The translations under genes were made by a program, and so were the position numbers. Shown here one piece after another: positions 3,682 to 60,032 of a stretch of 64,000 bases of DNA (position 1 is its first letter; each line of letters starts with the position of its first letter). Under the pieces are notes generated by a model, which had not been told where the DNA came from, ran no database searches, and worked only from the letters and a program-made list of their open reading frames with translations. The DNA is taken from NCBI RefSeq assembly GCF_056712565.1, contig NZ_CM160072.1; one strand, 5' to 3'.

Positions 3682-3936
3682 AATAATTTCCTTGTTTCGA
3701 TATAAAAATAATTAAAAATATGCATTTAAAACAATATGATAATTTTCATAAATTAATTGGAACGATCTAATTTATGCGTAATTTGTACGATTAGGGTGTA
3801 AAAAACACAACAAGGGAAGTGCGAATCTGTGATCGAAACGACGATCTCCTGCGATCCCTTGCGTTAACGGATCGCATGAGTAAAAGGAGATTATGATAAA
3901 GTAATTGCCTTGATCTTATGGGGGTTTGGAGCAGGC

Positions 3937-13367: not shown

Positions 13368-13399
13368 AAGGCGCACAAAAATAATAAGGAGAACATTTT

Positions 13400-14554: not shown

Positions 14555-14565
14555 GGAGGGCGCCG

Positions 14566-15984: not shown

Positions 15985-16005
15985 CACATACCACTGAGGG
16001 AATAT

Positions 16006-17175: not shown

Positions 17176-17187
17176 CAGGAGGTTAAG

Positions 17188-18060: not shown

Positions 18061-18078
18061 TCCATAAATGAATATCAA

Positions 18079-18102
18079 GGGAGCATATCGCTCCCTTTTT
18101 TT
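18079..18102 (+). terminator. rho-independent terminator ending the dehydrogenase/synthetase operon
   Basis: GGGAGC-ATATC-GCTCCC followed by an 8-T run, 19 nt after the sucD-like stop. Confidence 0.65.
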
Positions 18103-18215
18103 ATCTGTGTGGTAAGGGAATCATCTTTTAATAACTGTGCGGAAAACCGCGCATAAAATAAAAAGGATAAATAGCTAACTCATTAAATAACAAAGCGTTA
18201 TTAAAAAATTAAAGA

Positions 18216-18231
18216 TGGCATAGCTCCTGCA
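18216..18231 (+). promoter_or_regulatory. candidate sigma-54 (-24/-12) promoter for the transporter / Ldh_2 operon
   Basis: TGGCATAGCTCCTGCA: GG-N10-GC, close to consensus; about 40 nt upstream of ATG 18272. Confidence 0.6.
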
Positions 18232-18271
18232 ATAGCCAGGCAGGTTTTTTATTTTTCACAATGAGGTGAAT

Positions 18272-19771: not shown

Positions 19772-19782
19772 GGAAACCAACG

Positions 19783-20856
19783 ATGTCATTACAAATTGCT
19801 GTTGAAAAAGTGCGTTGGTTAGCTGCCGGGCTGCTGGAACTTAATGGCTGTGATGCCGATATCGCTCAGGATGTGGCGGAACATATGATTGAAGCGGAAC
19901 GTTATGGCTTTGCCAGCCACGGCGTCACGCTGCTACCGAAATATCTGGAAAATATCGCTCGTGGCGATGTAACCGCGAATGCCCGCCCGGAATGCTTAAC
20001 AAGTGAAGGTAATTTACAACGTTTTCATGCCCACAATGGCTTTGGTCAACACGCCGGAAAAGTGGCGGTAAATGCTGCCATCGAACAAGCAAAACACCGC
20101 GGTTTTTGCCTGTTAACGTTGTGCCATGCGCATCATTTAGGGCGTATGGGGCATTACGGGCAAATGGTTGCTGATCAAGGCCTGGCGATGCTGGCCATGA
20201 GTAACGTCACCGGGCGTCCGGCACTGGTCGCCCCGTGGGGCGGTGCGGAACCGCGTATGACCACTAACCCTTTCTGCTTTGCCTGGCCGTTCAGTGATGG
20301 GCGTCCGCCGATTCTGGTTGATTTTGCCACCAGTAGCATGGCGCTAAATAAAGCACGGGTAATGTCGTCCACCGGGAAGCAGGCCGCGCCGGGACAATTG
20401 ATCGATGCACAGGGGAATCCAAGCAATGATCCTGGGGTGTTATTCAGCAATCCTCCAGGGGCGTTACTGCCATTTGGTGAGCATAAAGGATTTGGCCTGG
20501 CACTGATGATTGAAATGATGGCGGGGATCTTATCTGGTGGTGACACGATCGCCGAAGATCATCAGACGGATGGATCTGCGCATAATCATCTTTTTGCGTT
20601 GATTATCGATCCTGATCAATTCACCGATCTGGCAGGGGAGAAAGGGCAGTTCTTTGCGGATTATCTGTTAGCTACGCAGCCTCAACCTGGCGGCAATCCG
20701 GTGATTTACCCCGGTATGCCAGAAGCTGCCAACCGGGAACGCAATGCGAAGATGATTACGATCCCGGTATCATTCTGGTCCTGGATAGTTGAACATTACG
20801 CCCGCAAAGGTATCGATTTGGGGTTACATCCTCAGGAATCAGCATTAGCTGGATGA
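19783..20856 (+). CDS. Ldh_2-family (malate/L-lactate dehydrogenase 2 type) 2-hydroxyacid/2-oxoacid oxidoreductase
   Basis: ORF-track ORF 19645-20856 trimmed to ATG 19783 (GAGGAAA SD; the upstream extension would overlap the transporter gene); 357 aa. Confidence 0.7.
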   Translation: MSLQIAVEKVRWLAAGLLELNGCDADIAQDVAEHMIEAERYGFASHGVTLLPKYLENIARGDVTANARPECLTSEGNLQRFHAHNGFGQHAGKVAVNAAIEQAKHRGFCLLTLCHAHHLGRMGHYGQMVADQGLAMLAMSNVTGRPALVAPWGGAEPRMTTNPFCFAWPFSDGRPPILVDFATSSMALNKARVMSSTGKQAAPGQLIDAQGNPSNDPGVLFSNPPGALLPFGEHKGFGLALMIEMMAGILSGGDTIAEDHQTDGSAHNHLFALIIDPDQFTDLAGEKGQFFADYLLATQPQPGGNPVIYPGMPEAANRERNAKMITIPVSFWSWIVEHYARKGIDLGLHPQESALAG

Positions 20857-22203
20857 TTCTGGTCGATAAACTTGCGGTTGAATCTGATGTTTGTTGAGTT
20901 TGTCATATAAAGTCTTGCGCGGCAGCTGTAATAGCCGCGCTGTCAAACTGACTTGGCCTTCCGTTTGTCGCAGCATATCTTCGATTAACTTTTTCTCGAA
21001 AGCATCAATGCAGGCGGTAAGGCCACTCTCTTCTTGCTGAGTCATTGGCACTGGCTGGTGGTGGGTCAGTAAACCGAGAACAAAACGCTCTGCATTGTGT
21101 TTAAGTTCACGTACATTGCCAGGCCAACTTTGTGATTGCAACCAGGCCAGTAACATGGGAGAAATATCAGGCAGAGGACGATTATATTTTTGTGCCGCCT
21201 GACTGGCGAACCAGTAAAACAGTTCAGGGATATCTTCTCGTCGCTGGCGTAGAGGTGGAATATTCAAGCTAACCACATTCAGACGATAATAGAGATCGAG
21301 ACGAAACAGATGTTCTTCGCTGCGACGCAGTAAATCTTCCTTGGTCGCTGCAATAACACGGCAATTCACCGGAATTAATTGATTGGCACCTAATCGTTCA
21401 ATGGTTCTTTCCTGCAATACACGTAGCAGTTTTACCTGCATTCCTGATGGCATTCCCTCTATTTCATCGAGAAATAACGTACCACCATTTGCATGTTCAA
21501 TTTTTCCAATACGCTTTTTAACCGCACCGGTAAATGCGCCCGCCTCATGACCAAATATTTCGCTTTCAAACAACGTTTCTGGTAAGCCTGCACAGTTTAA
21601 GGCAACAAACTGCCCCTGACGGCGGGTACTCCAGTGATGCAGCATTCTGGCGACGACTTCTTTACCACAACCTGTTTCACCATAAATAAGGACATCGGCA
21701 CCGGTATCTGCGACATTAAGGATCATTTTACGCAGTTGTTGCATCTGCGGACTACGACCAATCAGCACCGGGCCATTTTCCTGTTGCAGATTCGCCAGTA
21801 ATTGCTGATTTTCTAAAACCAATCGCCGTTTTTCTACCGCTCTGGCAATAATACTCAATAATTTATCTGAGCTACTTGGTTTCTCAATGAAATCGAATGC
21901 ACCATTACGCATGGCATCCACCGCCATTTCCACGTCACCGTGTCCGGTAATTAAAATAACCGGAATTTTGCTATCCATTTCGTTGATGTAACTGAGGAGC
22001 TCTAGTCCTGATATTCCAGGTAACCTGACATCGGTCAGTATAATAATGTTGGCTTGACTTTGAATAAGGGGAATACTGTGTTCTGCATCGCAACAGGAAA
22101 TAACACGATAACCAGCCAGCGTGAGCGTTTGTTCACAGGCAAAACGTACATCGTCACTATCCTCAATATAAACTATAGTAATTTCACTGGATTTATTATT
22201 CAT
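20845..22203 (-). CDS. kguR: sigma-54-dependent response regulator (NtrC family); matches KguR of the alpha-ketoglutarate utilization island
   Basis: 452 aa; receiver domain (IILTDVRLPG); AAA+ Walker A GETGCGKE; GAFTGA motif; C-terminal HTH. Gene name recalled from the UPEC literature, not verified here. Confidence 0.85.
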   Translation of the reverse strand: MNNKSSEITIVYIEDSDDVRFACEQTLTLAGYRVISCCDAEHSIPLIQSQANIIILTDVRLPGISGLELLSYINEMDSKIPVILITGHGDVEMAVDAMRNGAFDFIEKPSSSDKLLSIIARAVEKRRLVLENQQLLANLQQENGPVLIGRSPQMQQLRKMILNVADTGADVLIYGETGCGKEVVARMLHHWSTRRQGQFVALNCAGLPETLFESEIFGHEAGAFTGAVKKRIGKIEHANGGTLFLDEIEGMPSGMQVKLLRVLQERTIERLGANQLIPVNCRVIAATKEDLLRRSEEHLFRLDLYYRLNVVSLNIPPLRQRREDIPELFYWFASQAAQKYNRPLPDISPMLLAWLQSQSWPGNVRELKHNAERFVLGLLTHHQPVPMTQQEESGLTACIDAFEKKLIEDMLRQTEGQVSLTARLLQLPRKTLYDKLNKHQIQPQVYRPESSS

Positions 22204-24016
22204 GTTCTTCTCCCCATTCAGGCCAGGTTAATGTCATTACTGCGCCGCCTTCAGGATGATTACTGGCGTGGAGTGCGCCGTTCGAATTTCGGACAATTTC
22301 GCTGACTATTGCCAGTCCCAACCCCATTCCTCTACGTTTAGTGGTAAAAAATGGTTCAAATATGCGATCGACAACTTCAGGTGCAAAACCGCCACCGCTG
22401 TCTTTAATGGTAATAATAACTTTGTTATTTGCCTGGCGAATGGCGATATCCAGTCGTTTGTAAGAGCTACCTTCCATAGAATCTAAGGCGTTGCTAATTA
22501 AATTACTGAATATCTGTTCAAGACCGAGCTCATCGCAATTGACAAATAACGGCATGGATGGGGCTTTTATTCGTCGCTCAATGTTATTTTTCTCCATGCT
22601 GTGATTAAGTAACGCCACGGCGCTATACATCACTTTGATGACATCGGCAGAACCTTTAGGTACGCGATGGCGCGAGGCAAATGCTTTAAGTTCGGAAATG
22701 AGCTGCGTCATCCGCTCAATCACTGAAATAATGTGTTTCAGATTCTGTTCAACCTGCGGATACATCTCTTTTTTTAGCATAGTACGCGCGTTATCAGTAA
22801 GTGCGTGAATGGCGGCTAACGGTTGATTTTGTTCATGGGCAATTTCGGTTGCCATCTGTCCAAGCGCCGCCAGTTTGCTGGACTCTGCCAGTTCACTACG
22901 CGTAATTTGTAATACTTGTTCAGCCTGACTGCGCTCTTTTATCTCCTGTATTAATTTTTGATTGATCAATTCCAGGGCAGATGTACGCTCTTTAACCTGT
23001 TTTTCTAATGTTTCATTCGCCAGTGTTAATAATTGTTGTGCATGAGATCGCATTCTCCAGTATTTAATAAATAACAAAAACAGCAGGTAAATAATTAGTG
23101 TAATGACTAACGAAATAGCCCATGACCAGTACAGGTTATCTAAGGGGACCATAATTGTCATTTTCCAGTTAAATTCTGGAATGGCTATTTGTTGCGTATA
23201 ATATTGCGGGAATAAACAGAGTTGTTCTTTTTTATCTTTCAGGAAAGTAAAATTGCTCACGGTATAACAGGGATAATAATCCGCCGGTAAAAGATTGTCG
23301 AGACTATATTGACGGGTAGATTGTAGTTTTTGTTTTGCCTGAACAGGTAACGGTTGCAGTGTTCGCATTCGCCATGGCGATTTTGAACTTAAAAATATAA
23401 TCCCATGTTCATCATTCACGATAATATTTTCAGGACCTTCGGCCCATGCTTTTTCAATTTCATTAAGACTTATTTTTACTACTACAACACCGACAATTTT
23501 TCCTTTATCTTTTATACTTGTAGAGAGGAAGAATCCCGGTGTATTTGTAGTGCTACCAATACCGTAAAAGCGTCCATTTAAGCCAGACATGGCGTGTTTA
23601 TAATAGGGGCGATAGCTATAATTTTGCCCTACATAGCTGCCGGGGTCCTGCCAGTTGCTAGAAGCGATGGCCTTACCTTGGGTATCCAGAATAAATATTG
23701 CTGCGGTTTTGAGTTGAGTATTGAAATGTGCAATTCGTTGATTGAGTTCGCTGGACGTCATATCGTCAGGCGTAATTACCGCCTGACGGATGATATGGTC
23801 TGTTGAGAGCATATAGGGTAAAACATAAAATTGCTCGATGGTGGAATATAATGTGGACTTATACATTTCAAGCCGCATTTTATCGGTACCGGACAAGGTA
23901 TTAAAACGCAAGTGCAAAAAAGCGATTGAAACCGCGAGCATGATAAGAAAAAGTGAAATGCTTGTAATGTGAAATCGCCATTTGTTCTTAAATATATAAT
24001 TCCACGATATTTTCAT
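22196..24016 (-). CDS. kguS: sensor histidine kinase (DctB-like, periplasmic sensing domain); matches KguS
   Basis: 606 aa; two TM segments flanking a roughly 270-aa periplasmic domain; H-box ATEIAHEQNQPLAAI; ATPase G-box DSGGGF; stop overlaps the kguR start by 8 nt. Confidence 0.85.
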   Translation of the reverse strand: MKISWNYIFKNKWRFHITSISLFLIMLAVSIAFLHLRFNTLSGTDKMRLEMYKSTLYSTIEQFYVLPYMLSTDHIIRQAVITPDDMTSSELNQRIAHFNTQLKTAAIFILDTQGKAIASSNWQDPGSYVGQNYSYRPYYKHAMSGLNGRFYGIGSTTNTPGFFLSTSIKDKGKIVGVVVVKISLNEIEKAWAEGPENIIVNDEHGIIFLSSKSPWRMRTLQPLPVQAKQKLQSTRQYSLDNLLPADYYPCYTVSNFTFLKDKKEQLCLFPQYYTQQIAIPEFNWKMTIMVPLDNLYWSWAISLVITLIIYLLFLLFIKYWRMRSHAQQLLTLANETLEKQVKERTSALELINQKLIQEIKERSQAEQVLQITRSELAESSKLAALGQMATEIAHEQNQPLAAIHALTDNARTMLKKEMYPQVEQNLKHIISVIERMTQLISELKAFASRHRVPKGSADVIKVMYSAVALLNHSMEKNNIERRIKAPSMPLFVNCDELGLEQIFSNLISNALDSMEGSSYKRLDIAIRQANNKVIITIKDSGGGFAPEVVDRIFEPFFTTKRRGMGLGLAIVSEIVRNSNGALHASNHPEGGAVMTLTWPEWGEEHE

Positions 24017-32346: not shown

Positions 32347-32811
32347 ATGGAAAAGAAATTACCCCGCATTAAAGCGCTGCTAACCCCCGGCGAAGTGGCG
32401 AAACGCAGCGGTGTGGCGGTATCGGCGCTGCATTTCTATGAAAGCAAAGGGTTGATTACCAGTATCCGTAATAGCGGCAATCAGCGGCGATATAAACGTG
32501 ATGTGTTGCGATATGTCGCAATTATCAAAATTGCTCAGCGTATTGGCATTCCGCTCGCAACCATTCGTGAAGCGTTTGGCGTGTTGCCAGAAGGGCATAC
32601 GTTAAGTGCGAAAGAGTGGAAACAGCTTTCGTCCCAATGGCGAGAAGAGTTGGATCGGCGCATTCATACCTTAGTGGCGCTGCGTGACGAACTGGATGGA
32701 TGTATTGGTTGTGGCTGCCTTTCGCGCAGTGATTGCCCGTTGCGTAACCCGGGCGACCGATTAGGAGAAGAAGGTACCGGCGCACGCTTACTGGAAGATG
32801 AACAAAACTAA
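32347..32811 (+). CDS. soxR: redox-sensing MerR-family regulator SoxR
   Basis: 154 aa; [24 protein letters not shown]; [2Fe-2S] cysteine cluster [12 protein letters not shown]. Confidence 0.95.
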
Positions 32812-32840
32812 AGCGCCACAAGGGCGCTTTAGTTTGTTTT
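32810..32840 (+). terminator. soxR terminator stem-loop
   Basis: AAAGCGCC-ACAAG-GGCGCTTT followed by AGTTTGTTTT. Confidence 0.55.
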
Positions 32841-32955
32841 CCGGTCTTTGTCTTTCTCTCTATCCCGCTGGTACACAGGAGGGTTTCCCCCGACGTCAAC
32901 ACACCTCATTCGAGCACGTGGTGGAGGTTCCGGTTGGTGTTGATGCTTTAATTGT
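32815..32955 (-). ncRNA. ryjA: possible RyjA small RNA (position by synteny only)
   Basis: In K-12 a roughly 140-nt sRNA lies convergent to soxR just downstream of it; boundaries here are approximate and not supported by any motif I can read. Confidence 0.25.
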
Positions 32956-36542: not shown

Positions 36543-37427
36543 TTACTCTGGCGTTAACCAGTATCCTTCACAACAGCTCAGCCACGCGTGGGCAGAGTGG
36601 GAAAGGTAAACGCCCTCACGCCAAATCATTCCTAATTTCCAGCTTAGTTCGCTTTCCAGCGGTAGCCATTTTAAGGTGTTTTTATCTAATCGCTGGCAAA
36701 TGGGTTCCGGCAATATGGCTATTCCGACACCGGCCTGAACCATCGCGGCGAGAAAATCCCATTGCCCGCTGCGAACTGCAATTCTCGGCTTAACGCCATG
36801 TTCATCGAATAACTTCATCAATTGCTTACTTAAGGCAAAATCTTCGTTATAGATAAGTAGAGGATGTTCCGCCAATGTCTCCGGTGAGACGGCATCACAT
36901 TCAAGCCATTTACCTGAATGTGGCGTCAGTACACATAGTGGATGACTAAACAGCGATAACGTTGTCAGGCCGCTTTCTTCTACTGGCAGGGCTGTCAGTG
37001 CCATATCCAGTTCACCGTTCATCACCGCTTGTTGTACCGTCAGACCACCAAACTCCGAAATTTTCAATTCTACGCCGGGGTAACGCTGGCGAAAAAGGCC
37101 AATCGGCCCGGCCATCAACATCCCAACCATCGGCGGGATTCCCAGCCGCAAAACGCCGGTTTTAAGCTGATTGATATCGCTAAGCTCAGCTTCCAGTTGC
37201 CGAAACTCAGCCAGTAAAGCCAGCCCGCGCTCAAATACGACGCGACCAGTATCAGTGAGAAGCAGCCGACGACCATCGCGGATCAACAATATACAGTTCA
37301 GCTCATCTTCGAGATTCTTCAGCATCTTGCTGATAGTTGGTTGGGTGACAAACAACTTCTCCGCTGCGCGGGTGAAGCTTTGCTGGCGCACGACTTCGAC
37401 AAAATAACGCAGCGTTCTGATATCCAT
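36543..37427 (-). CDS. LysR-type transcriptional regulator, divergent from the LrgA/LrgB-like pair
   Basis: 294 aa; N-terminal wHTH IRTLRYFVEVVRQQSFTRAAEKLFVTQPTISKMLKNLE; LTTR co-inducer domain. Confidence 0.85.
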   Translation of the reverse strand: MDIRTLRYFVEVVRQQSFTRAAEKLFVTQPTISKMLKNLEDELNCILLIRDGRRLLLTDTGRVVFERGLALLAEFRQLEAELSDINQLKTGVLRLGIPPMVGMLMAGPIGLFRQRYPGVELKISEFGGLTVQQAVMNGELDMALTALPVEESGLTTLSLFSHPLCVLTPHSGKWLECDAVSPETLAEHPLLIYNEDFALSKQLMKLFDEHGVKPRIAVRSGQWDFLAAMVQAGVGIAILPEPICQRLDKNTLKWLPLESELSWKLGMIWREGVYLSHSAHAWLSCCEGYWLTPE

Positions 37428-37530
37428 AACTATTCCCTTTGACTATACCTGCAATGATTTTAATTCATTTCAGTCAGGGGCGAGCGCTCTCTATACTTAC
37501 CATTCTGTTTTATTTTCAGGATATCCTCTC

Positions 37531-37941
37531 ATGCCCGTGGCGCTTCGCCGCATTACCCCTGCCGTAGTGCAATCTATCCAGGTATTTTTTCAGGTTGTGC
37601 TGTATGCAGGTTTATTTATTTTTGCGCAGTATCTCGTCTCCTGGCTGCATTTGCCGCTGCCTGCCAACCTGGTGGGGATGATCCTGATGCTGGCGCTGAT
37701 TGTTTGTCGCATTCTTCCTCTGCAATGGGTTCGAGCCGGGGCGCGTTGGCTATTGGCCGAAATGTTGCTGTTTTTTGTCCCTGCCGTGGTGGCTGTGGTG
37801 AACTATGCACAACTATTACTGGTGGATGGCTGGCGTATTTTTGCTGTGATCGCGCTGAGTACGGTGATGGTGCTGGGCACGACTGCCTGGGTAGTGGAAA
37901 AAGTCTATCGCTATGAAATGCGCAGGTTAAACCGTGGCTAA
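37531..37941 (+). CDS. CidA/LrgA-family small membrane protein (YohJ-like)
   Basis: 136 aa; four predicted TM helices; paired with the downstream LrgB-family gene. Confidence 0.8.
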   Translation: MPVALRRITPAVVQSIQVFFQVVLYAGLFIFAQYLVSWLHLPLPANLVGMILMLALIVCRILPLQWVRAGARWLLAEMLLFFVPAVVAVVNYAQLLLVDGWRIFAVIALSTVMVLGTTAWVVEKVYRYEMRRLNRG

Positions 37942-38623
37942 TTTTCAGCTAAGTATGCTCTGTCTGGCAATTACGCTAGTTATCTATTTTCTTAACAAAC
38001 GCCTTTATCGCCGCTTTCGTAAATTGCCATTGATGCCTCTGGTGCTGACGCCTACGCTACTGGTTATGCTGCTGGTTTTTGGCAATATTTCCTGGCAAAA
38101 CTATATTGGCGAAGCGCACGGGTTACTATGGCTATTAGGTCCGGCCACCATCGCCTTTGCGGTACCAGTGTATGACAATCGGGCGATCATTAAGCGTCAC
38201 TGGATGTCGTTGACGGCAGGCGTACTGACGGCAACGGTGGTGGCAGTGACCAGCTCAGTGTGGCTGGCGCGATTGTTTACCCTGCCAGATGAGATCCAGC
38301 GTAGCCTGGCGGTGCGTTCGGTCACTACGCCATTTGCTTTGGCAGCGAGCCAGTCGCTCGGCGGACAGCCTGATCTGGTGGCGCTGTTTGTGGTGGTCAC
38401 CGGTGTGTTTGGCATGGCGATTGGCGACGTGTTGTTTTTACGTCTCTCTATTCGCGAAGGGATGGCGAAAGGTGCTGGATTCGGCGCGGCATCTCATGGT
38501 GCCGGGACTGCGCGGTCATATGAACTGGGTCAACAAGAAGGCGTAGTTGCAAGCCTGGTCATGATGCTTTCAGGTGTATTGATGGTATTGGTTTCGCCGC
38601 TGGTGGCCAGGATGATGTTCTGA
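37934..38623 (+). CDS. CidB/LrgB-family membrane protein (YohK-like)
   Basis: 229 aa from GTG 37934 (alternative ATG at 37955); aligns with E. coli YohK as I recall it (GTASHALGTARCAELDYQEG vs GAASHGAGTARSYELGQQEG); overlaps the LrgA-like stop by 8 nt. Confidence 0.8.
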   Translation: MANFQLSMLCLAITLVIYFLNKRLYRRFRKLPLMPLVLTPTLLVMLLVFGNISWQNYIGEAHGLLWLLGPATIAFAVPVYDNRAIIKRHWMSLTAGVLTATVVAVTSSVWLARLFTLPDEIQRSLAVRSVTTPFALAASQSLGGQPDLVALFVVVTGVFGMAIGDVLFLRLSIREGMAKGAGFGAASHGAGTARSYELGQQEGVVASLVMMLSGVLMVLVSPLVARMMF

Positions 38624-40699: not shown

Positions 40700-40905
40700 C
40701 CTTGCCGAATGTAGGCCGGATAAGGCGTTATACGCCGCATCCGGCAATCAATGCCTGATGCGACGCTGTCGCGTCTTATCAGGCCTACAGCCGTTGCCGA
40801 ATGTAGGCCGGATAAGGCGTTCACGCCGCATCCGGCAACCAGCGCCTGATGCGCCGCTGTCGCGTCTTATCAGGCCTACAAACCGTTACCGACTCGCATC
40901 CGGCA
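40700..40905. repeat. REP/BIME cluster: two tandem roughly 90-bp units of palindromic REP sequences between yjcH and acs
   Basis: Two near-identical units each containing GCCGGATAAGGCGTT...ACGCCGCATCCGGCA and TGCGACGCTGTCGCGTCTTATCAGGCCTAC palindromic cores. Confidence 0.85.
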
Positions 40906-52242: not shown

Positions 52243-52947
52243 TTAATCCATCCGATGTTCCCCCTTTTCCATGGCGTCGCGATCAAAAAATCGCTGAATT
52301 TTTCCCTCGGACATCAATGCCGCTCGATCAGACATATGCGCGATGACATCGGCATCGTGACTGACCAGCAGATATGTCATTTGGTGTTCCAGCTTAAGTT
52401 GATTCAACAAATTAAGGATTTCCGCTTGTACCGACATATCCAACGCCGAGGTGGGTTCATCCAGCAGAAGAAGTTGTGGTCGTAACAACAGGGCGCGAGC
52501 AATAACCACACGTTGCCGTTGACCACCGGAAAGCTGGTGTGGGTAGCGACGAGCGGCGTCGAAAGGCAAGCCAACCTGTTCCAGTGCAGTCTGGACGCGT
52601 TTTTCTATTTCTCTTTCGCCACGAATTTTGAGTGGTTCAGCCAGCGTTCGCCACAGAGTATGATTGGGATGCAACGAGGCATAGGGATCCTGAAACACCA
52701 TTTGCACATTGCGGCGGAGATCGCCTTGAAAACGCATTCCTGGTTTGATGGTGTGCCCAAACAGTGACACCTGACCGTGCCAGTCGCGCTGTAATCCAGC
52801 AATTACGCGCAAAATCGTGGATTTTCCGCAGCTTGATTCGCCAATTAAACTAAATGTCTCTCCGGCATTAACCGAAAAACTGGCGGCAGAAACTGCGGTT
52901 TTCTCAGCAAAAGTCACCTGTAAGTGATTAATTTCAACAATCGTCAT
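52243..52947 (-). CDS. ABC transporter ATP-binding protein (short, NikE-type)
   Basis: 234 aa; Walker A GESSCGKST; signature LSGGQRQR; Walker B LLLLDEPTSALD; no C-terminal oligopeptide-transporter extension. Confidence 0.85.
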   Translation of the reverse strand: MTIVEINHLQVTFAEKTAVSAASFSVNAGETFSLIGESSCGKSTILRVIAGLQRDWHGQVSLFGHTIKPGMRFQGDLRRNVQMVFQDPYASLHPNHTLWRTLAEPLKIRGEREIEKRVQTALEQVGLPFDAARRYPHQLSGGQRQRVVIARALLLRPQLLLLDEPTSALDMSVQAEILNLLNQLKLEHQMTYLLVSHDADVIAHMSDRAALMSEGKIQRFFDRDAMEKGEHRMD

Positions 52948-53770
52948 GGTATTTCTCCGGCGTCATTGCCGTCCTGTCCAGCGTCGGCAGCATCTGCCCG
53001 TAAGTTTGTGCATTTGGGCGGCAAGTCCACAGTGTGCGCGTGTAAGGATGCGTTGCTGTAGGTAGCGCAGCAGCGTGCATTTCATCCACCTTATTTCCCT
53101 GATACATCACCAGCACCCGATGGCAAAATTGGGCAACTAATGGCAGGTCGTGACTGATCAGCAACATTGCCATCTGACGTTGTTCACACTGGGTAACCAG
53201 CAGTTCCAGAATCTGATTACGCAGGCGCACATCCAGTGCTGATGTTGGCTCATCGGCAATCAATACCCGGGGATCGTTGATGAGCGCAATTGCAATCATC
53301 ACTCGCTGCCCCATGCCGCCAGAAAGTTCACGAGGATAGCTTTGCAGTACTCGCGTATTGAGGCCGACAGCCTGAATTGCGGTGTTTATTTTCTCTTCTT
53401 TCTCGCGGCGGTTCAGACGTTGATGGAGCGTAAGCGCCTCTTCCAGTTGCGCTTTTACTGTCTTTACTGGATTAAGCGCGTAACGCGGATCTTGCAATAC
53501 CATCGCGATATCGTTACCGCGCAACTGTTGCCATCCACGCGCGTTAAGGGTGAGTGCATCACGCCCCAGAATGTTAAGTGTGTCCGCGGTTACTACACCC
53601 GGTTTACGCACCAGCCCCATCAGGGCGCGGGCGGTCATGGACTTACCTGAACCCGACTCACCGACCAGCGCCAGACGTTCATTGCCTAATGTAAAACTGA
53701 CATTGTTGACGACCCGGGACTCCGGATAATCGACGCAGAGATTGTTGATACTAAGACGTGAGTCAGTCAT
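52934..53770 (-). CDS. ABC transporter ATP-binding protein (short, NikD-type)
   Basis: ORF-track ORF 52934-53830 (TTG) trimmed to ATG at 53770 (MTDSRLSINNLCVDY...); Walker A GESGSGKS; signature LSGGMGQR. Confidence 0.8.
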   Translation of the reverse strand: MTDSRLSINNLCVDYPESRVVNNVSFTLGNERLALVGESGSGKSMTARALMGLVRKPGVVTADTLNILGRDALTLNARGWQQLRGNDIAMVLQDPRYALNPVKTVKAQLEEALTLHQRLNRREKEEKINTAIQAVGLNTRVLQSYPRELSGGMGQRVMIAIALINDPRVLIADEPTSALDVRLRNQILELLVTQCEQRQMAMLLISHDLPLVAQFCHRVLVMYQGNKVDEMHAAALPTATHPYTRTLWTCRPNAQTYGQMLPTLDRTAMTPEKYHDDC

Positions 53771-54596
53771 GTTGAGGCTCCAGAACATCGCGCAAGCCAT
53801 CACCCAGCAGATTAAAGGCCAGACTGGCAATTAAGATAATTGCGCCGGGAGCGGCGGCAATCCACCATTGATCAAAAATGACCTGCATACCGTCGGCGAT
53901 CATGGCTCCCCATTCCGCCATTGGCGGGCGAGCACCAAGCCCAAGAAAACCCAGGCCAGCAGCCGCCAGAATGATACCCGCTAAATCCAGTGCCAGACGG
54001 ACAATGGCAGATGGCAGGCACAATGGTAAAATATGACCAGCCAGCAGACGCCTGCCGCGGATGCCCATCATTTCTGCGGCGGCAAGATAATCACTGTGTC
54101 GCAGACGTTGGATCTCACTCCGTGCCTGACGCGCATAAGCAGGCCAGGTGGTTAATGCCAGGGCCAGTGCGCCGTTAACCAGCCCCGGCCCCAGCATGGC
54201 AACAAAAGCAAAAGCCAGAATTAAACGCGGCATTGACATTACTACGTCAGTAAAACGCATCAGCACGCGTTCCAGCCAGCCGCCGTAGTACCCGGCTAAA
54301 ATGCCAATCAGCAGACCGACCGGGAGTGTAATGATTGTCACCAATGCCACCAGCCCCAGTGCCGGGCGGCTGCCGTAGATTAAACGTGAAAGTAGGTCTC
54401 GTCCGTAACTGTCAGTGCCGAGCCAGTGCTGACGACTCGGTGCTTGTAACCGCGCCGCCGCATCCTGCCAGTTAGGATCGTGAGGTGCCAGCCACGGCGC
54501 GAAGAGCGCAATTAGCATTAATAACAGGATAATTATCAACCCGCAAAACGCGGCGGGTGAATGGCGTAAACGGCGTAAAAAGAGAAACATCGGCAT
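53763..54596 (-). CDS. ABC transporter permease (NikC/DppC-type)
   Basis: 277 aa; six predicted TM helices; BPD-transporter region around AFAFVAMLGPGLVNGALALALT. Confidence 0.85.
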   Translation of the reverse strand: MPMFLFLRRLRHSPAAFCGLIIILLLMLIALFAPWLAPHDPNWQDAAARLQAPSRQHWLGTDSYGRDLLSRLIYGSRPALGLVALVTIITLPVGLLIGILAGYYGGWLERVLMRFTDVVMSMPRLILAFAFVAMLGPGLVNGALALALTTWPAYARQARSEIQRLRHSDYLAAAEMMGIRGRRLLAGHILPLCLPSAIVRLALDLAGIILAAAGLGFLGLGARPPMAEWGAMIADGMQVIFDQWWIAAAPGAIILIASLAFNLLGDGLRDVLEPQHD

Positions 54597-55645
54597 CAGC
54601 GTAACCTCGGATCGGTCAGCCGGACCAGCAGGTCGGTTAAGTTATTTATCAACACAAAGCAGACGCCAATCAGCAGCGTTCCTCCCATGATTGCTGTGGT
54701 ATCACCCGCGAAGAGCGCTGTAGTGAGGTAGCGCCCAATACCTGGCCATGAAAAGACGGTTTCTGTCAGTACCGCGCCTTCCAGCATTGATGTATAGGCG
54801 AGGGCGATAACGGTGAGCAAGGTGCCGCGAATGTTGGGTAAAACATGACGTAGCAAAATTGTCATCTCGCTGGCCCCTTTGGCGCGCGCCAGCAGAATAT
54901 ATTCTTTATTCATTTCGCCAAGACAGGCGGAACGAGTCAGGCGCGTAATACTGGCGAGCGAGAAGTACGCCAGTAATAAAACCGGAAGTATCAAATGGTT
55001 GATTGCATTGGTAAATGCCTCGCGATCGCCAGAAAGCCACGTATCAATCAGCGCAAATCCGCTGCGGGGTTCTATGGTGAATTGATAAATATCATCCAGC
55101 CTGCCCGGCCCGGCACTCCATTGCAGTCTGGCGTAGAACAGCGCCAGCATCAGCAGACCAAGCCAAAAAACAGGGACGGAATTTCCCAGTAGAGTTAATG
55201 TTCGCACGGTGAAATCCAGCGGAGAACCGACATAACGGGCGCAAAGTACACCCGCAATGACGCCGACAACAGCACCGACAATAAGCGCCAACGTTGCCAG
55301 TTCAATGGTCGCCGGGAATACTGATAGCAAGTCCTGGAGTACCGGTTGCCCGGTGGAGCTGGCGATGCCCAGATCGCCGTGTGCCAGATTCATCAGGTAA
55401 TGCCAGAACTGGACGGCTAACGGCTGATCCAATCCTAACTGGTGGCGTACCTGATCATAGGTGGACTGGCTGGCGTGATCGCCAACGATTTGTAGTACGC
55501 GATCGACCGGTGAGAGAGCCGAAAGCGCAAAGGTAATCAGCAGCAGGCCGAGTAGCGTCAGAGCAACGGTAAACAGCCCTTGCAACAGCGCGAGCAGAGG
55601 GCGCTTGCCTCGCCATCTCGCGCGAGTGGAAAAAACGACAGACAT
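54596..55645 (-). CDS. ABC transporter permease (NikB/DppB-type)
   Basis: ORF-track ORF 54596-55738 trimmed to ATG at 55645 (MSVVFSTRARWRGKRPLLALL...) because the intergenic stem-loop occupies the extension; start is uncertain. Confidence 0.75.
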   Translation of the reverse strand: MSVVFSTRARWRGKRPLLALLQGLFTVALTLLGLLLITFALSALSPVDRVLQIVGDHASQSTYDQVRHQLGLDQPLAVQFWHYLMNLAHGDLGIASSTGQPVLQDLLSVFPATIELATLALIVGAVVGVIAGVLCARYVGSPLDFTVRTLTLLGNSVPVFWLGLLMLALFYARLQWSAGPGRLDDIYQFTIEPRSGFALIDTWLSGDREAFTNAINHLILPVLLLAYFSLASITRLTRSACLGEMNKEYILLARAKGASEMTILLRHVLPNIRGTLLTVIALAYTSMLEGAVLTETVFSWPGIGRYLTTALFAGDTTAIMGGTLLIGVCFVLINNLTDLLVRLTDPRLR

Positions 55646-55691
55646 GATCTTTCCATACAGTGATAAATCAGCGGCTGGCCTGCAATACAGG

Positions 55692-55725
55692 CCAGCCCTG
55701 GTACCGCGCCCGGTAACAGGGCTGG
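55692..55725 (-). other. intra-operon stem-loop between the binding-protein gene and the first permease gene
   Basis: CCAGCCCTG-(16 nt)-CAGGGCTGG, 9-bp stem, read directly. Confidence 0.5.
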
Positions 55726-55744
55726 ACGCGAGTTGCATACAGGG

Positions 55745-57313
55745 TTATTTGGTTACCTGATCAAACCAGACCATATCGGCATTCAACCCTTGTTGATACC
55801 CCTGCACATTATCACGCATGACAATTTGCGTTTTGCCTTGATCAATAAAGACATACGGGGAACTACGTTGTAGTTCTTGTTGCATTTTCTTATACAAATC
55901 AAGACGTTTAGTGCTATCAGGTTCAGCGATGGCCGCCAGCGTTTCTTTGTTCAGTTCCGGGATTTTCCAGCCGTTTAACCCGGCAACGGTGCTGGATTTG
56001 CCATCGTTATAGGCGAAAGAGCTGGCGTTGGAATGTGCGTCAAAATAATCAGGCAACCACATACGAATGGCCCCCTGATGCTGGTGGGCGCGAACGCGAG
56101 AGTAGACCTGACTCCCTGCGGCTGGCAGCAAATCAACTTTTACACCGCCCTGAGCAAAGCTGGCCTGAATTGACTGCGCGATGGTAATAAATGGCGGTTT
56201 ATTTTCGACATCAAGCGTGAAGTGCGGGTCTTTGATTCCGGCTTTAGCGAGGATCTCTTTTGCTTTGGCTGGATTAAAGGTAAACGGTGTTTCTTCCAGT
56301 GCTCCAGGAAAGCCCACGGGCAGGAAACTTTGATGGGTAAAATATTGTCCTTTTAAGAGATTTTTGGTGATGCCGTCGTAATCGACCAACCAGCGAGCGG
56401 CCTCCCAGAACGCAGGATTACTCATCAGCGGGTTATCCTTGTTACCGGTATTGAAGGCCAGGTAGTTCTGTTCGGCGGAGGCAATGCTCATCACTTTTAC
56501 GCCAGGTTTACCCTGTAATGCATCGATTTGATCGGCTCCCAGATCACGAGCCATATCAGCATCACCTTGTTGGATCAGCAGGCGACGCGTTGCCGGATCG
56601 GGAACATTTTTGATGATGACGTTTTTCAGTTTCGGGGCGCCGGTTGGTGAGCTGGCGTTGGCTTCCATCACGATGGCCTGATGCGGTTGGTAAGTACGCA
56701 TTTTAAACGCGCCGCTGCCAGCGGAATGCATCTTCAGCCATTCATTACCAAAGTCGTTATTTTTGGCGTTTGGCGCAACCAGCTTCTCGTCAACAATTGA
56801 GGCGATTGGTGTGGAGAGAATATTCAGTGCCAGCGCCGGGCTGACGTCGGCACTCCATTGCACCTGGACGGTATGGTCATCGATTTTCTTCAACTGGCTG
56901 GCGATATTTTCCGGCTGCCATCCCAGCACATTGAGAATAAACGCACCGGATTTATTCAGTGTGACAGCCCGGACATAAGAGTAAATCACATCTTCCGGGC
57001 GTACCGGATTACCAGAGGCAAATTTCGCATCGCTTTTCAGTTTTATGGTTAGCGTTTTGGCTGCGGGGTCAGCCTGCCAACTTTCCGCCAGAATCGGAGT
57101 GATTTTCGTCGGATCATTACGGTCCGGTTGTACTACGCGTTGATACAGACTTGGTACAGTCTGAATACTTGAGAGTTCATTAGCTTCTGCCGGGTCCAGA
57201 CTCACAATATCATCCAGTCCCTGGGCTACAACCAACGTATTAGGCGGTGTAGCGGCAACGGTTGTGGCGGAAATTGTGCTTAAAACCAGTAAAGGTAATA
57301 GTTTTTTAATCAT
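55745..57313 (-). CDS. ABC transporter periplasmic substrate-binding protein, family 5 (NikA/DppA/OppA-like)
   Basis: 522 aa; signal peptide MIKKLLPLLVLSTISATTVAA; size typical of cluster C SBPs. Confidence 0.85.
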   Translation of the reverse strand: MIKKLLPLLVLSTISATTVAATPPNTLVVAQGLDDIVSLDPAEANELSSIQTVPSLYQRVVQPDRNDPTKITPILAESWQADPAAKTLTIKLKSDAKFASGNPVRPEDVIYSYVRAVTLNKSGAFILNVLGWQPENIASQLKKIDDHTVQVQWSADVSPALALNILSTPIASIVDEKLVAPNAKNNDFGNEWLKMHSAGSGAFKMRTYQPHQAIVMEANASSPTGAPKLKNVIIKNVPDPATRRLLIQQGDADMARDLGADQIDALQGKPGVKVMSIASAEQNYLAFNTGNKDNPLMSNPAFWEAARWLVDYDGITKNLLKGQYFTHQSFLPVGFPGALEETPFTFNPAKAKEILAKAGIKDPHFTLDVENKPPFITIAQSIQASFAQGGVKVDLLPAAGSQVYSRVRAHQHQGAIRMWLPDYFDAHSNASSFAYNDGKSSTVAGLNGWKIPELNKETLAAIAEPDSTKRLDLYKKMQQELQRSSPYVFIDQGKTQIVMRDNVQGYQQGLNADMVWFDQVTK

Positions 57314-57601
57314 ATGCTTCCCAATCCCTGAAATTACTTTGAGGTTATTAATATGCTATCAGACGGGGTTTCGCTGCATTAATCGCGCCAGAATATCCCG
57401 TTAATAGAACGAGTTAAACGGTCGATGATTTCTCACCTTACCGAAATTTTGTTTATCAAATGTAAAGTATTATTACGTTAGGCCGCGATGAGAATTGAGT
57501 AAAGATAATTCTCATTTGCAATCGTGACTGGAATAGAAGAACAACCGAGAAGACGTCGCTAATAACCAGGATGGGCTGGTTTGACTGCGCAGGTATGTAT
57601 A

Positions 57602-57635
57602 AAAAAATCCGGAAACAGAGAGTCGTTTCCGGATT
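57602..57635 (-). terminator. rho-independent terminator of fdhF
   Basis: ATCCGGAAAC-(8 nt)-GTTTCCGGAT with a 7-A run on the plus strand (U-tract on the minus-strand transcript), 53 nt after the fdhF stop. Confidence 0.7.
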
Positions 57636-57687: not shown

Positions 57688-59835
57688 TTACGCCAGTGCC
57701 GCTTCGCGCAGGCGAGTTTTCAACTTGTTGTACTCGTCAATCACGTACTGCTCGGCGGCGCGCTGATCGGCGATCGGCTCGACGCGCACGGCGCAGTATT
57801 TGTATTCCGGCGTTTTCGTAATCGGGCTTAAGTTTTCGGTCACCAGCTCGTTACAGGCACCAATCCACCACTGGTAGGTCATGTAAATCGCCCCTTTGTT
57901 CGGACGATCGCTGACCTGCGCACGGGTGATAATTTTGCCTTTACGCGAGTGCACCCAAACCAATGCCTCATCTTCAATACCCAGACGTTTGGCGTCTTCG
58001 GTATTGATTTGTGCGTAGCCAGGTTCATCAGCCAGCGCCGCCAGTGCCGCACAGTTACCGGTCATCGAACGGCAAGAGTAGTGACCAACTTCACGCACCG
58101 TTGACAGTACCATCGGGTACTCGTCGGTGAGTTTGTCGATTGGCGCTACCCAGTCGCAGGTGAAGAACTGCGCCAGACCGTTCGGGGTATCAAACTTCTC
58201 TTTAAACAGATAAGAAGTCCCCTGATCGGCATCTGAAGTATCGCGGCAAGGCCACTGAATGAAGCCCAGTTCGCCCATTTTCTCGTAAGTCGCACCGTAG
58301 AAATCCGGGCACAGATGACGCAACTCGTCCCAGATCTCCTGGGTGTTGTTGTAGTGCATCGGATAACCCATACGAGTGGCAATTTCACTGATGATTTGCC
58401 AGTCCGTTTTCAGATCCCACTTCGGCTCAACCGCCTTGAAGAAACGCTGGAAGCCACGGTCAGCCGCAGTAAACACGCCTTCATGCTCGCCCCACGACGT
58501 TGACGGTAAAATGACATCCGCCGCCGACGCGGTTTTGGTCATAAAGATGTCCTGAACGATAACCAGTTCCAGATCTTCAAAGGCTTTACGTACTGCCGAC
58601 AGTTCCGCGTCAGTTTGCAGCGGATCTTCGCCCATAATGTACGCCGCTCTCACTTCACCATGCGCCACGCGGTGCGGCAGCTCGCTGATACGATAACCGG
58701 TATGAGCAGGCAGGCTTTCCACGCCCCAGGCTTTGGCAAATTTCTCGCGGTTAGCCGGATCTTTCACGTACTGATAGCCCGGATACGTATCCGGCAGCGC
58801 GCCCATATCGCAGGCACCCTGCACGTTGTTCTGACCACGAACCGGGTTTACACCCGCATGTGGCTTACCGAGGTTACCGGTCAGCATCGCGAGGCTGGTC
58901 AGAGAACGCACGGTTTCCACGCCCTGATAGAACTGGGTTACCCCCATGCCCCACAGGATGGCGGCGCTTTCCGCCTGGGCATACATCCGCGCCGCCTGAC
59001 GAATCTCACTGGCGCTGACGCCGGTGATATCTTCAACCGACTCCGGCGTGTAGCCTTCAACGATTTTACGATACTCTTCAAAGCCTTCTGTACGGGAAGC
59101 GACGAACGCTTTGTCGTACAGATTTTCTTCAATAATGACATGGCCCATCGCATTCAACAGCGCGATGTTCGAGCCGTTTTTCAATGCAATGTGCATGTCA
59201 GCAATGCGCGCGGTTTCAATTTTACGCGGATCGCAGACGATAATTTTCGCCCCGTTACGTTTAGCGTTAATTACGTGATTCGCCACGATTGGGTGGGAAT
59301 CCGCCGGGTTATACCCGAAAACGAACACTAAATCGGTATTATCAATTTCGTTAATAGCATTGCTCATTGCGCCATTACCGACCGATTGGTGCAGACCTGC
59401 AACCGATGGGCCGTGTCAGACACGAGCGCAGCAGTCAACGTTATTGGTACCAATAACGGCGCGCGCAAATTTTTGCATTACATAGTTGGTTTCGTTACCC
59501 GTACCGCGCGAGGAGCCGGTCGTCTGGATGGCATCCGGACCGTACTTCTCTTTGATGGCGCTCAGGCGCTCGGCAACGTAATTCAGTGCCTCATCCCAGG
59601 AAACAGGTTCGAGTTTGCCGCCACGCTGGCGACGGATCATGGGGGTTTTCAGGCGCGGGGTCAGGATCTGGGTATCGTTAATGAAGTCCCAGCCATAATA
59701 ACCCTTCAGACACAGGGTACCCTGGTTGGTTTTCCCCTGCGCTGCCTCCGCCCGGACGATTTTGCCGTTATCGACGACCAGGTTGATTTTGCAACCTGAT
59801 GCGCAATAGGGGCAAACCGTGACGACTTTTTTCAT
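57688..59835 (-). CDS. fdhF: formate dehydrogenase H (selenocysteine- and molybdopterin-containing), with in-frame UGA Sec codon at 59416-59418
   Basis: ORF-track ORFs 59416-59835 (139 aa, ...VDCCARV) and 57688-59367 are in the same frame, separated only by TGA; joined product is 715 aa reading ...CARV-U-HGPSV...; N-terminal 4Fe-4S motif CPYCASGC. Confidence 0.95.
59375..59418 (-). other. UGA(Sec140) codon and immediately downstream SECIS region of fdhF mRNA
   Basis: Position of the in-frame TGA read directly; SECIS extent (about 40 nt 3' of the UGA) is placed from knowledge of fdhF, not folded here. Confidence 0.7.
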
Positions 59836-59886: not shown

Positions 59887-59902
59887 TGCATCTTTTATGC
59901 CA
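59887..59902 (-). promoter_or_regulatory. sigma-54 promoter of fdhF (FhlA-dependent)
   Basis: Minus strand reads TGGCATAAAAGATGCA (GG-N10-GC), about 50 nt upstream of the fdhF ATG. Confidence 0.8.
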
Positions 59903-60001
59903 CATTTTATTTGGGGTCATTCCCTGATATTACGGGCACTATTTATTCAAAACTCTGACGAAAAACAGGCTGTCGTCAGTTTTGACGTGACGAAACGAAA
60001 T

Positions 60002-60025
60002 ACCGCGTGACAGCCATCACGCGGT
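60002..60025. terminator. stem-loop downstream of mdtP
   Basis: ACCGCGTGA-CAGCCA-TCACGCGGT, 9-bp stem, 8 nt after the mdtP stop. Confidence 0.45.
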
Positions 60026-60032
60026 AGACATT

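What the first reader, a model, noticed from the sequence alone, without database searches (positions are those of the whole stretch)
59375..59418. Selenocysteine recoding in fdhF: in-frame TGA splits the ORF track
The ORF track reports a 139-aa ORF ending at TGA (59416-59418) and a 559-aa ORF in the same frame 48 nt downstream. Reading through the TGA gives a continuous 715-aa formate dehydrogenase H with Sec at position 140 (...CARV-U-HGPSV...). A naive gene caller would mis-annotate this as two genes or a pseudogene.
Basis: partly seen in the sequence, partly recalled or inferred. Interest (0 to 1): 0.35.

Follow-up and report, generated by a model that had tools for sequence, protein, structure and literature searches.

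The report
Selenocysteine UGA codon in E. coli fdhF

Summary
On the minus strand, a 139-aa ORF (59416-59835) ends at a TGA (59416-59418). A 559-aa ORF (57688-59367) follows in the same frame, 48 nt downstream. Reading through the TGA gives 715 codons with ...CARV-U-HGPSV....

- The protein aligns end to end with the solved FDH-H structure (PDB 1AA6/1FDO). That chain has a non-standard residue at position 140, and only two residues differ (K289E, A390V).
- Rfam SECIS_2 matches 59369-59423 (-) at 87.1 bits (gathering score 70), with the UGA in register.
- The published minimal SECIS elements (+15 to +31 hairpin, U17, G23, U24) are all present.
- RefSeq annotates these exact coordinates as one CDS, [quoted passage not shown].
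- The window differs from the E. coli ATCC 11775 chromosome at only 2 of 64,000 bases.
- The 121 nt around the UGA are at least 99% identical in 5,419 of 5,420 matching records.
- selA/selB, selC and selD are each present in at least 5,424 of 5,426 complete E. coli genomes.
- Substitutions downstream of the TGA are almost all synonymous.

One caveat: folding energy alone does not separate the hairpin from shuffled sequence.

Verdict: already known, the founding example of bacterial Sec recoding. Interest is low.

The parts
57688..59835 (-). fdhF coding sequence: 715 codons plus the TAA stop, encoding formate dehydrogenase H, a Mo-bis-MGD/[4Fe-4S] selenoprotein
   Evidence: The translation is continuous apart from codon 140. 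It aligns 715/715 with PDB 1aa6_A, with 2 substitutions. TIGR01591 scores 1089 bits against a cutoff of 666. RefSeq annotates a CDS at exactly these coordinates. Cys8, Cys11, Cys15, Cys42, His141 and Arg333 are present.
59416..59418 (-). UGA codon 140, decoded as selenocysteine (Sec140, the Mo ligand)
   Evidence: The sequence shows TGA here. PDB chain 1aa6_A has the non-standard residue X at position 140. Solved homologs have X or Cys in this column, followed by His. PMC4513850 describes UGA140 of fdhF.
59369..59423 (-). Full SECIS element as modelled by Rfam SECIS_2 (RF01988). It includes the UGA at model positions 6-8 and the basal stem.
   Evidence: cmscan scores 87.1 bits (gathering 70), with E = 9.9e-19 in the 3.5-kb search and 1.8e-17 over the whole window, model positions 1-55/55, and no non-canonical pairs.
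59388..59404 (-). Minimal 17-nt SECIS hairpin GGUUGCAGGUCUGCACC, at nt +15 to +31 counting from the U of UGA. It carries the bulged U17 (59402), the apical loop GGUC (59394-59397), G23 (59396) and U24 (59395). This is the SelB-binding part.
   Evidence: Positions were computed. The fold is shown: the centroid bulges +17 and the MFE bulges +18. The definition of the minimal SECIS and its essential bases comes from PMC8659212.
59844..59847 (-). Shine-Dalgarno-like GGAG, 8 nt upstream of the fdhF ATG
   Evidence: Read directly from the sequence. Its function is inferred.
59888..59902 (-). Sigma-54-type -24/-12 promoter-like element TGGCATAAAAGATGC, ending 52 nt upstream of the ATG
   Evidence: It matches the pattern with 2 mismatches and the sequence is shown. 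FhlA/sigma-54 control of fdhF is stated in PMC11291172. The pattern count across the window is no higher than chance (91 found, 90 expected), so the assignment rests on position and literature and was not tested here.
59947..59995 (-). Candidate FhlA upstream activating region: two TTTCGTCA copies 32 nt apart, and an 8-nt inverted repeat TCAAAACT/AGTTTTGA
   Evidence: the repeat finder families D4 and I3. This is inference only. Short two-copy repeats are often chance matches, and no binding-site model was tested.
57606..57635 (-). Intrinsic-terminator-like hairpin with a T-run, about 50 nt after the fdhF stop codon
   Evidence: scan_promoters_terminators reports a 12-bp stem followed by TTTTTAT. 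This is a consensus match only.
60001..60026 (-). Terminator-like hairpin after mdtP, the upstream gene. It suggests that fdhF is a separate, monocistronic transcription unit.
   Evidence: One search reports 11 pairs followed by TTTCGTTT, and one search reports inverted repeat I2 at 100% complementarity. The boundary role is inferred.

Best explanation
This is fdhF of Escherichia coli, from a strain essentially identical to the type strain ATCC 11775. It encodes the 715-residue formate dehydrogenase H of the formate hydrogenlyase complex. Codon 140 is UGA and is recoded to selenocysteine. As the ribosome approaches, the mRNA directly 3' of the UGA folds into the SECIS hairpin. Its apical part (+15 to +31, with bulged U17 and loop G23/U24) binds the specialised elongation factor SelB, which carries Sec-tRNA(Sec). 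That tRNA is selC, charged with Ser and converted to Sec by SelA using selenophosphate from SelD. This tethers the Sec-tRNA at the right distance to decode the UGA in competition with RF2. Sec140 then becomes the selenium ligand of the molybdenum centre, next to His141 and Arg333. Shown here: the stop codon, the continuous homologous frame, the SECIS match and its key nucleotides, the annotation, conservation across the species, presence of the sel genes in the species, and purifying selection on the downstream frame. Taken from established knowledge and not tested here: SelB binding, actual selenium insertion, and Mo coordination.
For: A single in-frame TGA sits at codon 140, with no other stop before codon 716. 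The protein aligns over 715/715 positions with PDB 1aa6/1fdo/1fdi/2iv2/7z0t 'formate dehydrogenase H'; the chain has X at 140 and only K289E and A390V differ. TIGR01591 scores 1089 bits against a cutoff of 666. Rfam SECIS_2 scores 87.1 bits against a gathering score of 70 at 59369-59423 (-), with the UGA in register. The minimal hairpin GGUUGCAGGUCUGCACC lies at +15 to +31 with U17, G23 and U24, as described in PMC8659212. PMC4513850 states that UGA140 is followed by a SECIS encoding aa 141-153 and is recoded at 30-40% efficiency. RefSeq annotates one CDS, 'selenocysteine-containing', on 100% identical DNA. The window equals the ATCC 11775 record apart from 2 SNPs. The 121 nt around the UGA are at least 99% identical in 5,419 of 5,420 records, and the TGA is retained in K-12 and in the most divergent allele. 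Against K-12 there are 36 nucleotide differences, 35 of them downstream of the TGA, and they change only 2 amino acids; against 14EC007, 81 of 85 are synonymous. selAB, selC and selD are present in at least 5,424 of 5,426 genomes. Solved homologs carry Sec (X) or Cys at this column, followed by His.
Against: Thermodynamics alone is weak. The MFE z-score is -0.29 for the 55-nt element, -1.55 for the 40 nt 3' of the UGA, and -0.67 for the 17-nt hairpin, and 16 to 65 of 200 shuffles fold at least as well. The consensus of the Rfam model is almost identical to this sequence, so its high score mostly restates sequence identity to known fdhF SECIS elements and is not independent structural evidence. 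No covariation test across distant species was run. The only structure-relevant change seen is one U.G to C-G change in the basal stem of one allele. The sel genes lie outside the window, so their presence in this particular genome is inferred from species-wide frequency. None of these points contradicts the explanation.
Confidence: 0.98

Rival explanations
1. The TGA is a genuine nonsense mutation and fdhF is a pseudogene in this strain.
For: A mechanical ORF listing splits the gene into 139-aa and 559-aa ORFs.
Against: The same TGA is present in K-12 and in the most divergent allele found. The surrounding 121 nt are at least 99% identical in 5,419 of 5,420 records. Substitutions downstream are overwhelmingly synonymous, which means the frame is still under selection. 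A SECIS follows the codon. The crystallised protein has a non-standard residue at 140.
Confidence: 0.005
2. There are two independent genes: a 139-aa [4Fe-4S]-domain protein ending at the TGA, and a 559-aa protein initiated at ATG 59367.
For: The two ORFs exist. Published in vitro work shows that a sizeable fraction of ribosomes terminate at UGA140 (PMC4513850), so a 139-aa product is made as a by-product.
Against: The solved structure is a single 715-residue chain spanning both parts. The TIGR01591 match runs uninterrupted from residue 6 to 685. The 20 nt before Met157 (AATCGGTCGGTAATGGCGCA) contain no GGAG/AGGA-type ribosome-binding site. The 48-nt 'gap' encodes conserved residues HGPSVAGLHQSVGNGA, which align with homologs.
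Confidence: 0.005
3. The UGA is read through without selenocysteine, for example by near-cognate tRNA(Trp) or tRNA(Cys), with the hairpin merely slowing termination.
For: [quoted passage not shown] This suggests that some Sec-independent read-through exists as a minor pathway.
Against: The complete Sec machinery is near-universal in the species. The SelB-contact nucleotides U17, G23 and U24 are all in place. The PDB chain carries a non-standard residue, not Trp or Cys, at 140. PMC4513850 reports that efficient recoding depends on selenium supply.
Confidence: 0.01

Closest known systems
E. coli K-12 fdhF (b4079) / formate dehydrogenase H, PDB 1AA6, 1FDO, 1FDI, 2IV2, 7Z0T
   Same: The gene, its length (2,148 nt), the UGA at codon 140, and the neighbour mdtP on the 5' side are all the same. 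The 121 nt around the UGA are identical. The protein aligns 715/715, and nucleotide identity is 98.3%.
   Different: There are two amino-acid substitutions (K289E, A390V) and 33 synonymous differences. In this strain a 5-gene ABC transporter lies between fdhF and yjcO, whereas in K-12 the two genes are adjacent.
Rfam RF01988 SECIS_2 (bacterial selenocysteine insertion sequence)
   Same: The match is full length (1-55/55) at 87.1 bits, above the gathering score of 70, and every modelled pair is canonical or G.U.
   Different: Nothing of note. The sequence differs from the model consensus only at the two degenerate positions of the basal stem.
Rfam RF01989 SECIS_3
   Same: It overlaps the same site, shares the GUCUGACA start, and has a similar hairpin layout.
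   Different: It scores only 35.8 bits against a gathering score of 63, with four non-canonical pairs, so this site is not a member of that family.
Cys-type and other Sec-type formate dehydrogenase catalytic subunits (e.g. PDB 7QV7_S, 7BKB_D, 9WXB_B with Cys; 9T1S_L with X)
   Same: They share the Mo/W-bis-PGD fold family and the conserved motif ...CAR(V/L/I)-[U/C]-H..., with the ligand residue followed by His.
   Different: The Cys-type enzymes encode the ligand with an ordinary Cys codon and need no SECIS. They also belong to different complexes (HDCR, F420-dependent or NAD-dependent FDH) rather than formate hydrogenlyase.

Membership tests
Bacterial SECIS element, fdhF type (Rfam RF01988) | Covariance-model score at or above the curated gathering score | tested here: met
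   87.1 bits against 70, full-length match at 59369-59423 (-)
Bacterial SECIS element, fdhF type (Rfam RF01988) | Hairpin lies inside the coding sequence directly 3' of an in-frame UGA | tested here: met
   The UGA occupies model positions 6-8, and the stem-loop occupies the next ~40 nt, which encode aa 141-153 (PMC4513850)
Bacterial SECIS element, fdhF type (Rfam RF01988) | Minimal 17-nt apical hairpin at +15 to +31 with a bulged U17 and with G23 and U24 in the loop (definition from PMC8659212) | tested here: met
   +15..+31 = GGUUGCAGGUCUGCACC; +17 = U, +23 = G, +24 = U. The predicted fold has a 4-nt GGUC loop and a single bulged U, at +17 in the centroid and +18 in the MFE.
Bacterial SECIS element, fdhF type (Rfam RF01988) | Fold is more stable than composition-matched random sequence | tested here: inconclusive
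z-scores are -0.29 (55 nt), -1.55 (40 nt) and -0.67 (17 nt).
Bacterial SECIS element, fdhF type (Rfam RF01988) | Binds SelB-GTP-Sec-tRNA(Sec) and directs Sec insertion | not testable with these tools
   Established experimentally for the identical K-12 sequence (PMC4513850). The sequence identity is shown.
Formate dehydrogenase H (FdhF; NCBIfam TIGR01591 Fdh-alpha) | Whole-protein HMM score above the curated cutoff | tested here: met
   1089 bits against a cutoff of 666.25, residues 6-685 on profile positions 1-672/672. All other families score below their cutoffs.
Formate dehydrogenase H (FdhF; NCBIfam TIGR01591 Fdh-alpha) | Near-identity to the experimentally solved FDH-H chain | tested here: met
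   1666 bits, 715/715 aligned, 2 substitutions
Formate dehydrogenase H (FdhF; NCBIfam TIGR01591 Fdh-alpha) | N-terminal [4Fe-4S] cysteines plus the active-site Sec140-His141 and Arg333 (the role of these residues is from established knowledge of FDH-H) | tested here: met
   C8, C11, C15, C42, *140, H141 and R333 are present
Formate dehydrogenase H (FdhF; NCBIfam TIGR01591 Fdh-alpha) | Conserved genomic context and annotation as fdhF | tested here: met
   mdtP-mdtO-mdtN lie upstream and yjcO downstream, and RefSeq annotates a CDS 'fdhF ... selenocysteine-containing'
Sec-decoding trait of the host genome (selA, selB, selC, selD) | All four genes are present in the same genome | tested here: inconclusive
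   They are not in the window, which has no tRNA gene. They are present in 5,425, 5,424 and 5,425 of 5,426 complete E. coli genomes, so presence in this genome is near-certain but inferred. I did not locate them in the ATCC 11775 record itself.

The most novel reading that the evidence does not exclude
The evidence does not exclude that the UGA140/SECIS site also has a role beyond Sec insertion. Because only a fraction of ribosomes recode (PMC4513850), the 139-residue [4Fe-4S]-domain termination product could have a function of its own. Alternatively, the site could act as a selenium-sensing checkpoint that adjusts FHL output through translation-coupled mRNA fate. The near-invariance of the 121 nt around the UGA across about 5,400 genomes fits such an extra constraint. 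It is equally explained by the known double constraint of protein sequence plus SelB-binding RNA structure.
Probability: 0.03. Interest if true: 0.35.

Novelty: already known. Interest (0 to 1): 0.04.

Why it matters
This adds no new biology. fdhF UGA140 with its SECIS is, to my knowledge, the founding example of bacterial selenocysteine recoding, and it is the standard reagent for studying it (PMC4513850 and PMC8659212 both use it). Its practical value is as a positive control for the scan: it shows the first-stage reader can recognise a recoded stop from raw sequence. It also serves as a reminder that mechanical ORF lists split selenoprotein genes, whereas current RefSeq annotation handles them correctly.

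Tried and rejected
(1) Folding energy as the test for the SECIS. The hairpin is predicted, but its energy is not distinguishable from dinucleotide shuffles. I therefore rejected it as a discriminating test and used the covariance model and position-specific nucleotides instead.

(2) A sigma-54 consensus search of the window gave 91 matches against 90 expected, so the count is uninformative. The one site 52 nt upstream of the fdhF ATG is kept only because of its position and the literature.

(3) A proposal that the ORF pattern (two long ORFs split by one stop) is itself significant was rejected. Ten other such pairs exist in the window, all adjacent genes or non-coding frames.

(4) A weak THF-II riboswitch hit at 57395-57421 (17.3 bits against a gathering score of 41, E = 6.3) was dismissed as chance. 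SECIS_3 scored below its gathering score.

(5) Local hyper-conservation of the SECIS is only partly supported. The window and K-12 show no differences from gene nt 331 to 524, but the whole 5' quarter of the gene is low in differences between these two alleles. The divergent allele 14EC007 has 2 changes in the 55-nt element, about the gene average.

(6) I deliberately did not run large database scans (protein homolog searches, genome contigs, structure prediction). A solved structure and curated families already answer the question, and the cost was not justified.

Full report
**1. The observation**

The feature lies on the minus strand. The + strand reads 'tca' at 59416-59418, which is TGA on the minus strand. 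The mechanical ORF list gives a 139-aa ORF at 59416..59835 (-) that ends at this TGA. It also gives a 559-aa ORF at 57688..59367 (-) in the same frame, leaving 48 nt (59368-59415) between them. Translating 57688-59835 (-) in one frame gives 716 codons with stops only at codon 140 and at the end. The local context is ...NNVDCCARV*HGPSVAGLHQ.... The 559-aa ORF is just the stretch from Met157, the first in-frame ATG after the stop. The 20 nt before that ATG contain no GGAG/AGGA-type ribosome-binding site. The only omission is the strand.

As a control, I counted how often two stop-free stretches of at least 130 codons in one frame are split by a single stop. There are 11 such pairs in the window. 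By their coordinates against the annotation, the other 10 are adjacent genes in the same frame or non-coding frames. The ORF pattern alone is therefore not diagnostic, and the argument has to rest on homology and on the RNA element.

**2. What it is**

The read-through protein, with X at position 140, aligns over all 715 positions with the solved structure of E. coli formate dehydrogenase H (1aa6_A; the same sequence is in 1fdi, 1fdo, 2iv2 and 7z0t) at 1666 bits. That chain itself carries the non-standard residue X at position 140. Only two residues differ, K289E and A390V. NCBIfam TIGR01591 (formate dehydrogenase subunit alpha, equivalog) scores 1089 bits against a cutoff of 666. Every other molybdopterin-oxidoreductase family falls below its own cutoff. 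The [4Fe-4S] cysteines C8, C11, C15 and C42, plus His141 and Arg333, are present.

A 2.5-kb query around the gene is 100% identical to many E. coli chromosomes, and the gene is present in 5,419 of 5,426 complete genomes. In the type strain ATCC 11775 (NZ_CP033092.2), RefSeq annotates exactly these coordinates as one CDS, 'fdhF: formate dehydrogenase H subunit alpha, selenocysteine-containing'. It is flanked by mdtP-mdtO-mdtN on one side. The whole 64-kb window equals the reverse complement of record positions 4431534-4495533 apart from two single-base differences.

**3. The recoding signal**

Rfam's SECIS_2 model (RF01988) matches 59369-59423 (-) over its full length at 87.1 bits (gathering score 70). 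The E-value is 9.9e-19 in the 3.5-kb search and 1.8e-17 over the whole window. The UGA sits at model positions 6-8, and there are no non-canonical pairs. It is the only SECIS hit in the window.

Counting from the U of UGA as +1 (window 59418), the published minimal SECIS is the 17-nt hairpin at +15 to +31, with U17 bulged and G23/U24 in the apical loop. U17 and G23 are the SelB contacts (PMC8659212). In the window, +15..+31 is GGUUGCAGGUCUGCACC (59404-59388), with U at +17, G at +23 and U at +24. The predicted fold is a stem with a GGUC tetraloop and one bulged U. [quoted passage not shown]

Two caveats apply:
- Folding energy does not separate the element from shuffled sequence. The z-score is -0.29 for 55 nt, -1.55 for the 40 nt 3' of the UGA, and -0.67 for the 17-nt hairpin.
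- The Rfam consensus is nearly identical to this sequence. The high score is therefore mostly a statement of identity to known fdhF SECIS elements, not independent structural evidence.

**4. Evidence that the stop is read through rather than being a lesion**

- The 121 nt centred on the UGA are at least 99% identical in 5,419 of 5,420 matching records. Over the 2.5-kb region, only 1,002 records reach 99%.
- The TGA is retained in K-12 and in the single most divergent allele, strain 14EC007.
- Against K-12 there are 36 nucleotide differences in the gene. Thirty-five lie downstream of the TGA, and together they change only two amino acids. Against 14EC007, 81 of 85 differences are synonymous. 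The frame after the stop is therefore under purifying selection as protein.
- The two changes that 14EC007 carries inside the 55-nt element are both synonymous and compatible with the structure. CGU to CGC turns a U.G pair of the basal stem into C-G, and AAU to AAC falls in the unpaired UAAU (one search read against the structure line).
- In solved homologs, the column aligned with position 140 holds X (Sec) in the F420-dependent FDH 9t1s_L and Cys in 7qv7_S, 7bkb_D and 9wxb_B, always followed by His. This is the pattern expected for the metal-ligand position.

**5. The machinery**

The window has no tRNA gene, and the sel genes lie elsewhere on the chromosome. I took selB-selA, selC (tRNA-Sec) and selD from K-12 and used them as queries. 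They are found in 5,425, 5,424 and 5,425 of 5,426 complete E. coli genomes. Their presence in the genome this window comes from is therefore near-certain, but it is inferred. I did not locate them in the ATCC 11775 record itself.

**6. Surroundings**

- fdhF appears to be its own transcription unit. A terminator-like hairpin follows mdtP (60001-60026) and another follows fdhF (57606-57635).
- A -24/-12-type element, TGGCATAAAAGATGC, lies at 59888-59902 (-), ending 52 nt before the ATG. A GGAG lies 8 nt before the ATG.
- The literature states that fdhF expression depends on FhlA, a sigma-54-dependent activator that binds upstream of fdhF (PMC11291172).
- The consensus search itself is no better than chance across the window. 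The repeated TTTCGTCA motifs and the inverted repeat further upstream are only candidate FhlA sites.

**7. Mechanism, rivals, and verdict**

The best explanation is SelB/SECIS-directed decoding of UGA140 by Sec-tRNA(Sec). It yields the Mo-coordinating Sec140 of FDH-H, and I give it a confidence of 0.98. Three rivals were considered:
- A nonsense mutation or pseudogene.
- Two separate genes.
- Sec-independent read-through as the main pathway.

Each is contradicted by several independent results listed above, and together they receive about 0.02.

The feature is a full member of the fdhF-type bacterial SECIS family and of the FdhF protein family on every criterion that could be tested. It is already known, and to my knowledge it is the founding example of bacterial selenocysteine recoding. 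It is also already correctly annotated in public records. Interest is therefore low (0.04). Its main value is as a positive control showing that the first-stage reader can detect stop-codon recoding from raw sequence.

Noticed in passing
window 52300-57400 (substrate-binding protein gene at 55745-57313, minus strand): A five-gene ABC transporter (substrate-binding protein, two permeases, two ATPases) lies between fdhF and yjcO, whereas in K-12 yjcO is directly next to fdhF. The block is present in only 1,043 of 5,426 E. coli genomes, nearly all at >=99% identity. The binding protein's best NCBIfam hit is nickel NikA at 110.9 bits, far below the cutoff of 393, with Dpp, Gsi and Opp close behind, so the substrate is unassigned. 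A Nik-like importer next to a gene of the Ni-dependent formate hydrogenlyase pathway is suggestive, but this was not tested.
   Followed up: partly
window ~10623-24016: Between tyrB and aphA the matching record annotates a second 2-oxoglutarate dehydrogenase E1 / odhB / lpdA / sucC / sucD set. It also annotates a DASS anion symporter, an Ldh-family oxidoreductase, and a histidine kinase plus sigma-54-dependent regulator pair. From memory this resembles the alpha-ketoglutarate utilisation island (KguS/KguR) of extraintestinal pathogenic E. coli, but I did not check that here.
   Followed up: no
window 32804-32944 (-) and 40714-40785, 40806-40876 (+): Rfam gathering-level hits: the sRNA sraL (153 bits), and two tandem naRNA4 (REP-derived) copies in the acs-yjcH intergenic region.
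   Followed up: no
RefSeq records hit (e.g. H14 NZ_CP076230.1, H34 NZ_CP200247.1): The same fdhF gene is named inconsistently across RefSeq genomes. Names include 'formate dehydrogenase subunit alpha', 'formate dehydrogenase H subunit alpha, selenocysteine-containing' and, in at least two records, 'formate dehydrogenase N subunit alpha, selenocysteine-containing', which is the wrong isoenzyme.
   Followed up: no
E. coli genome collection: fdhF is missing from 7 of 5,426 complete genomes. Four fdhF matches, two selD matches and one selC match lie on records labelled as plasmids. These may be mislabelled replicons or real transfers.
   Followed up: no
window 33711 and 49739: These are the only two differences between the 64-kb window and the ATCC 11775 chromosome record. 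At 33711 the window has T and the record G, inside ghxP. At 49739 the window has T and the record C, in the gltP-nrfG intergenic region. The window therefore comes from the type strain lineage or a very close relative.
   Followed up: partly
L002 (NZ_CP024131.1, strain 14EC007), gene nt 414 and 462; equivalent to window 59422 and 59374: The most divergent fdhF allele found carries two synonymous changes inside the SECIS_2 match. One converts a U.G pair of the basal stem to C-G, and the other falls in the unpaired UAAU. This is a small example of variation compatible with the structure.
   Followed up: partly
window 1-4971, 7614-9166, 36543-38623: Several gene sets are annotated without gene names in the matching record: a LacI-family regulator with CoA-transferase, enoyl-CoA hydratase and MFS transporter; pnuC with an AAA-family ATPase; and LrgA/LrgB-family proteins with a LysR regulator. 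They may be lineage-specific insertions among conserved core genes. I did not compare them with K-12.
   Followed up: no
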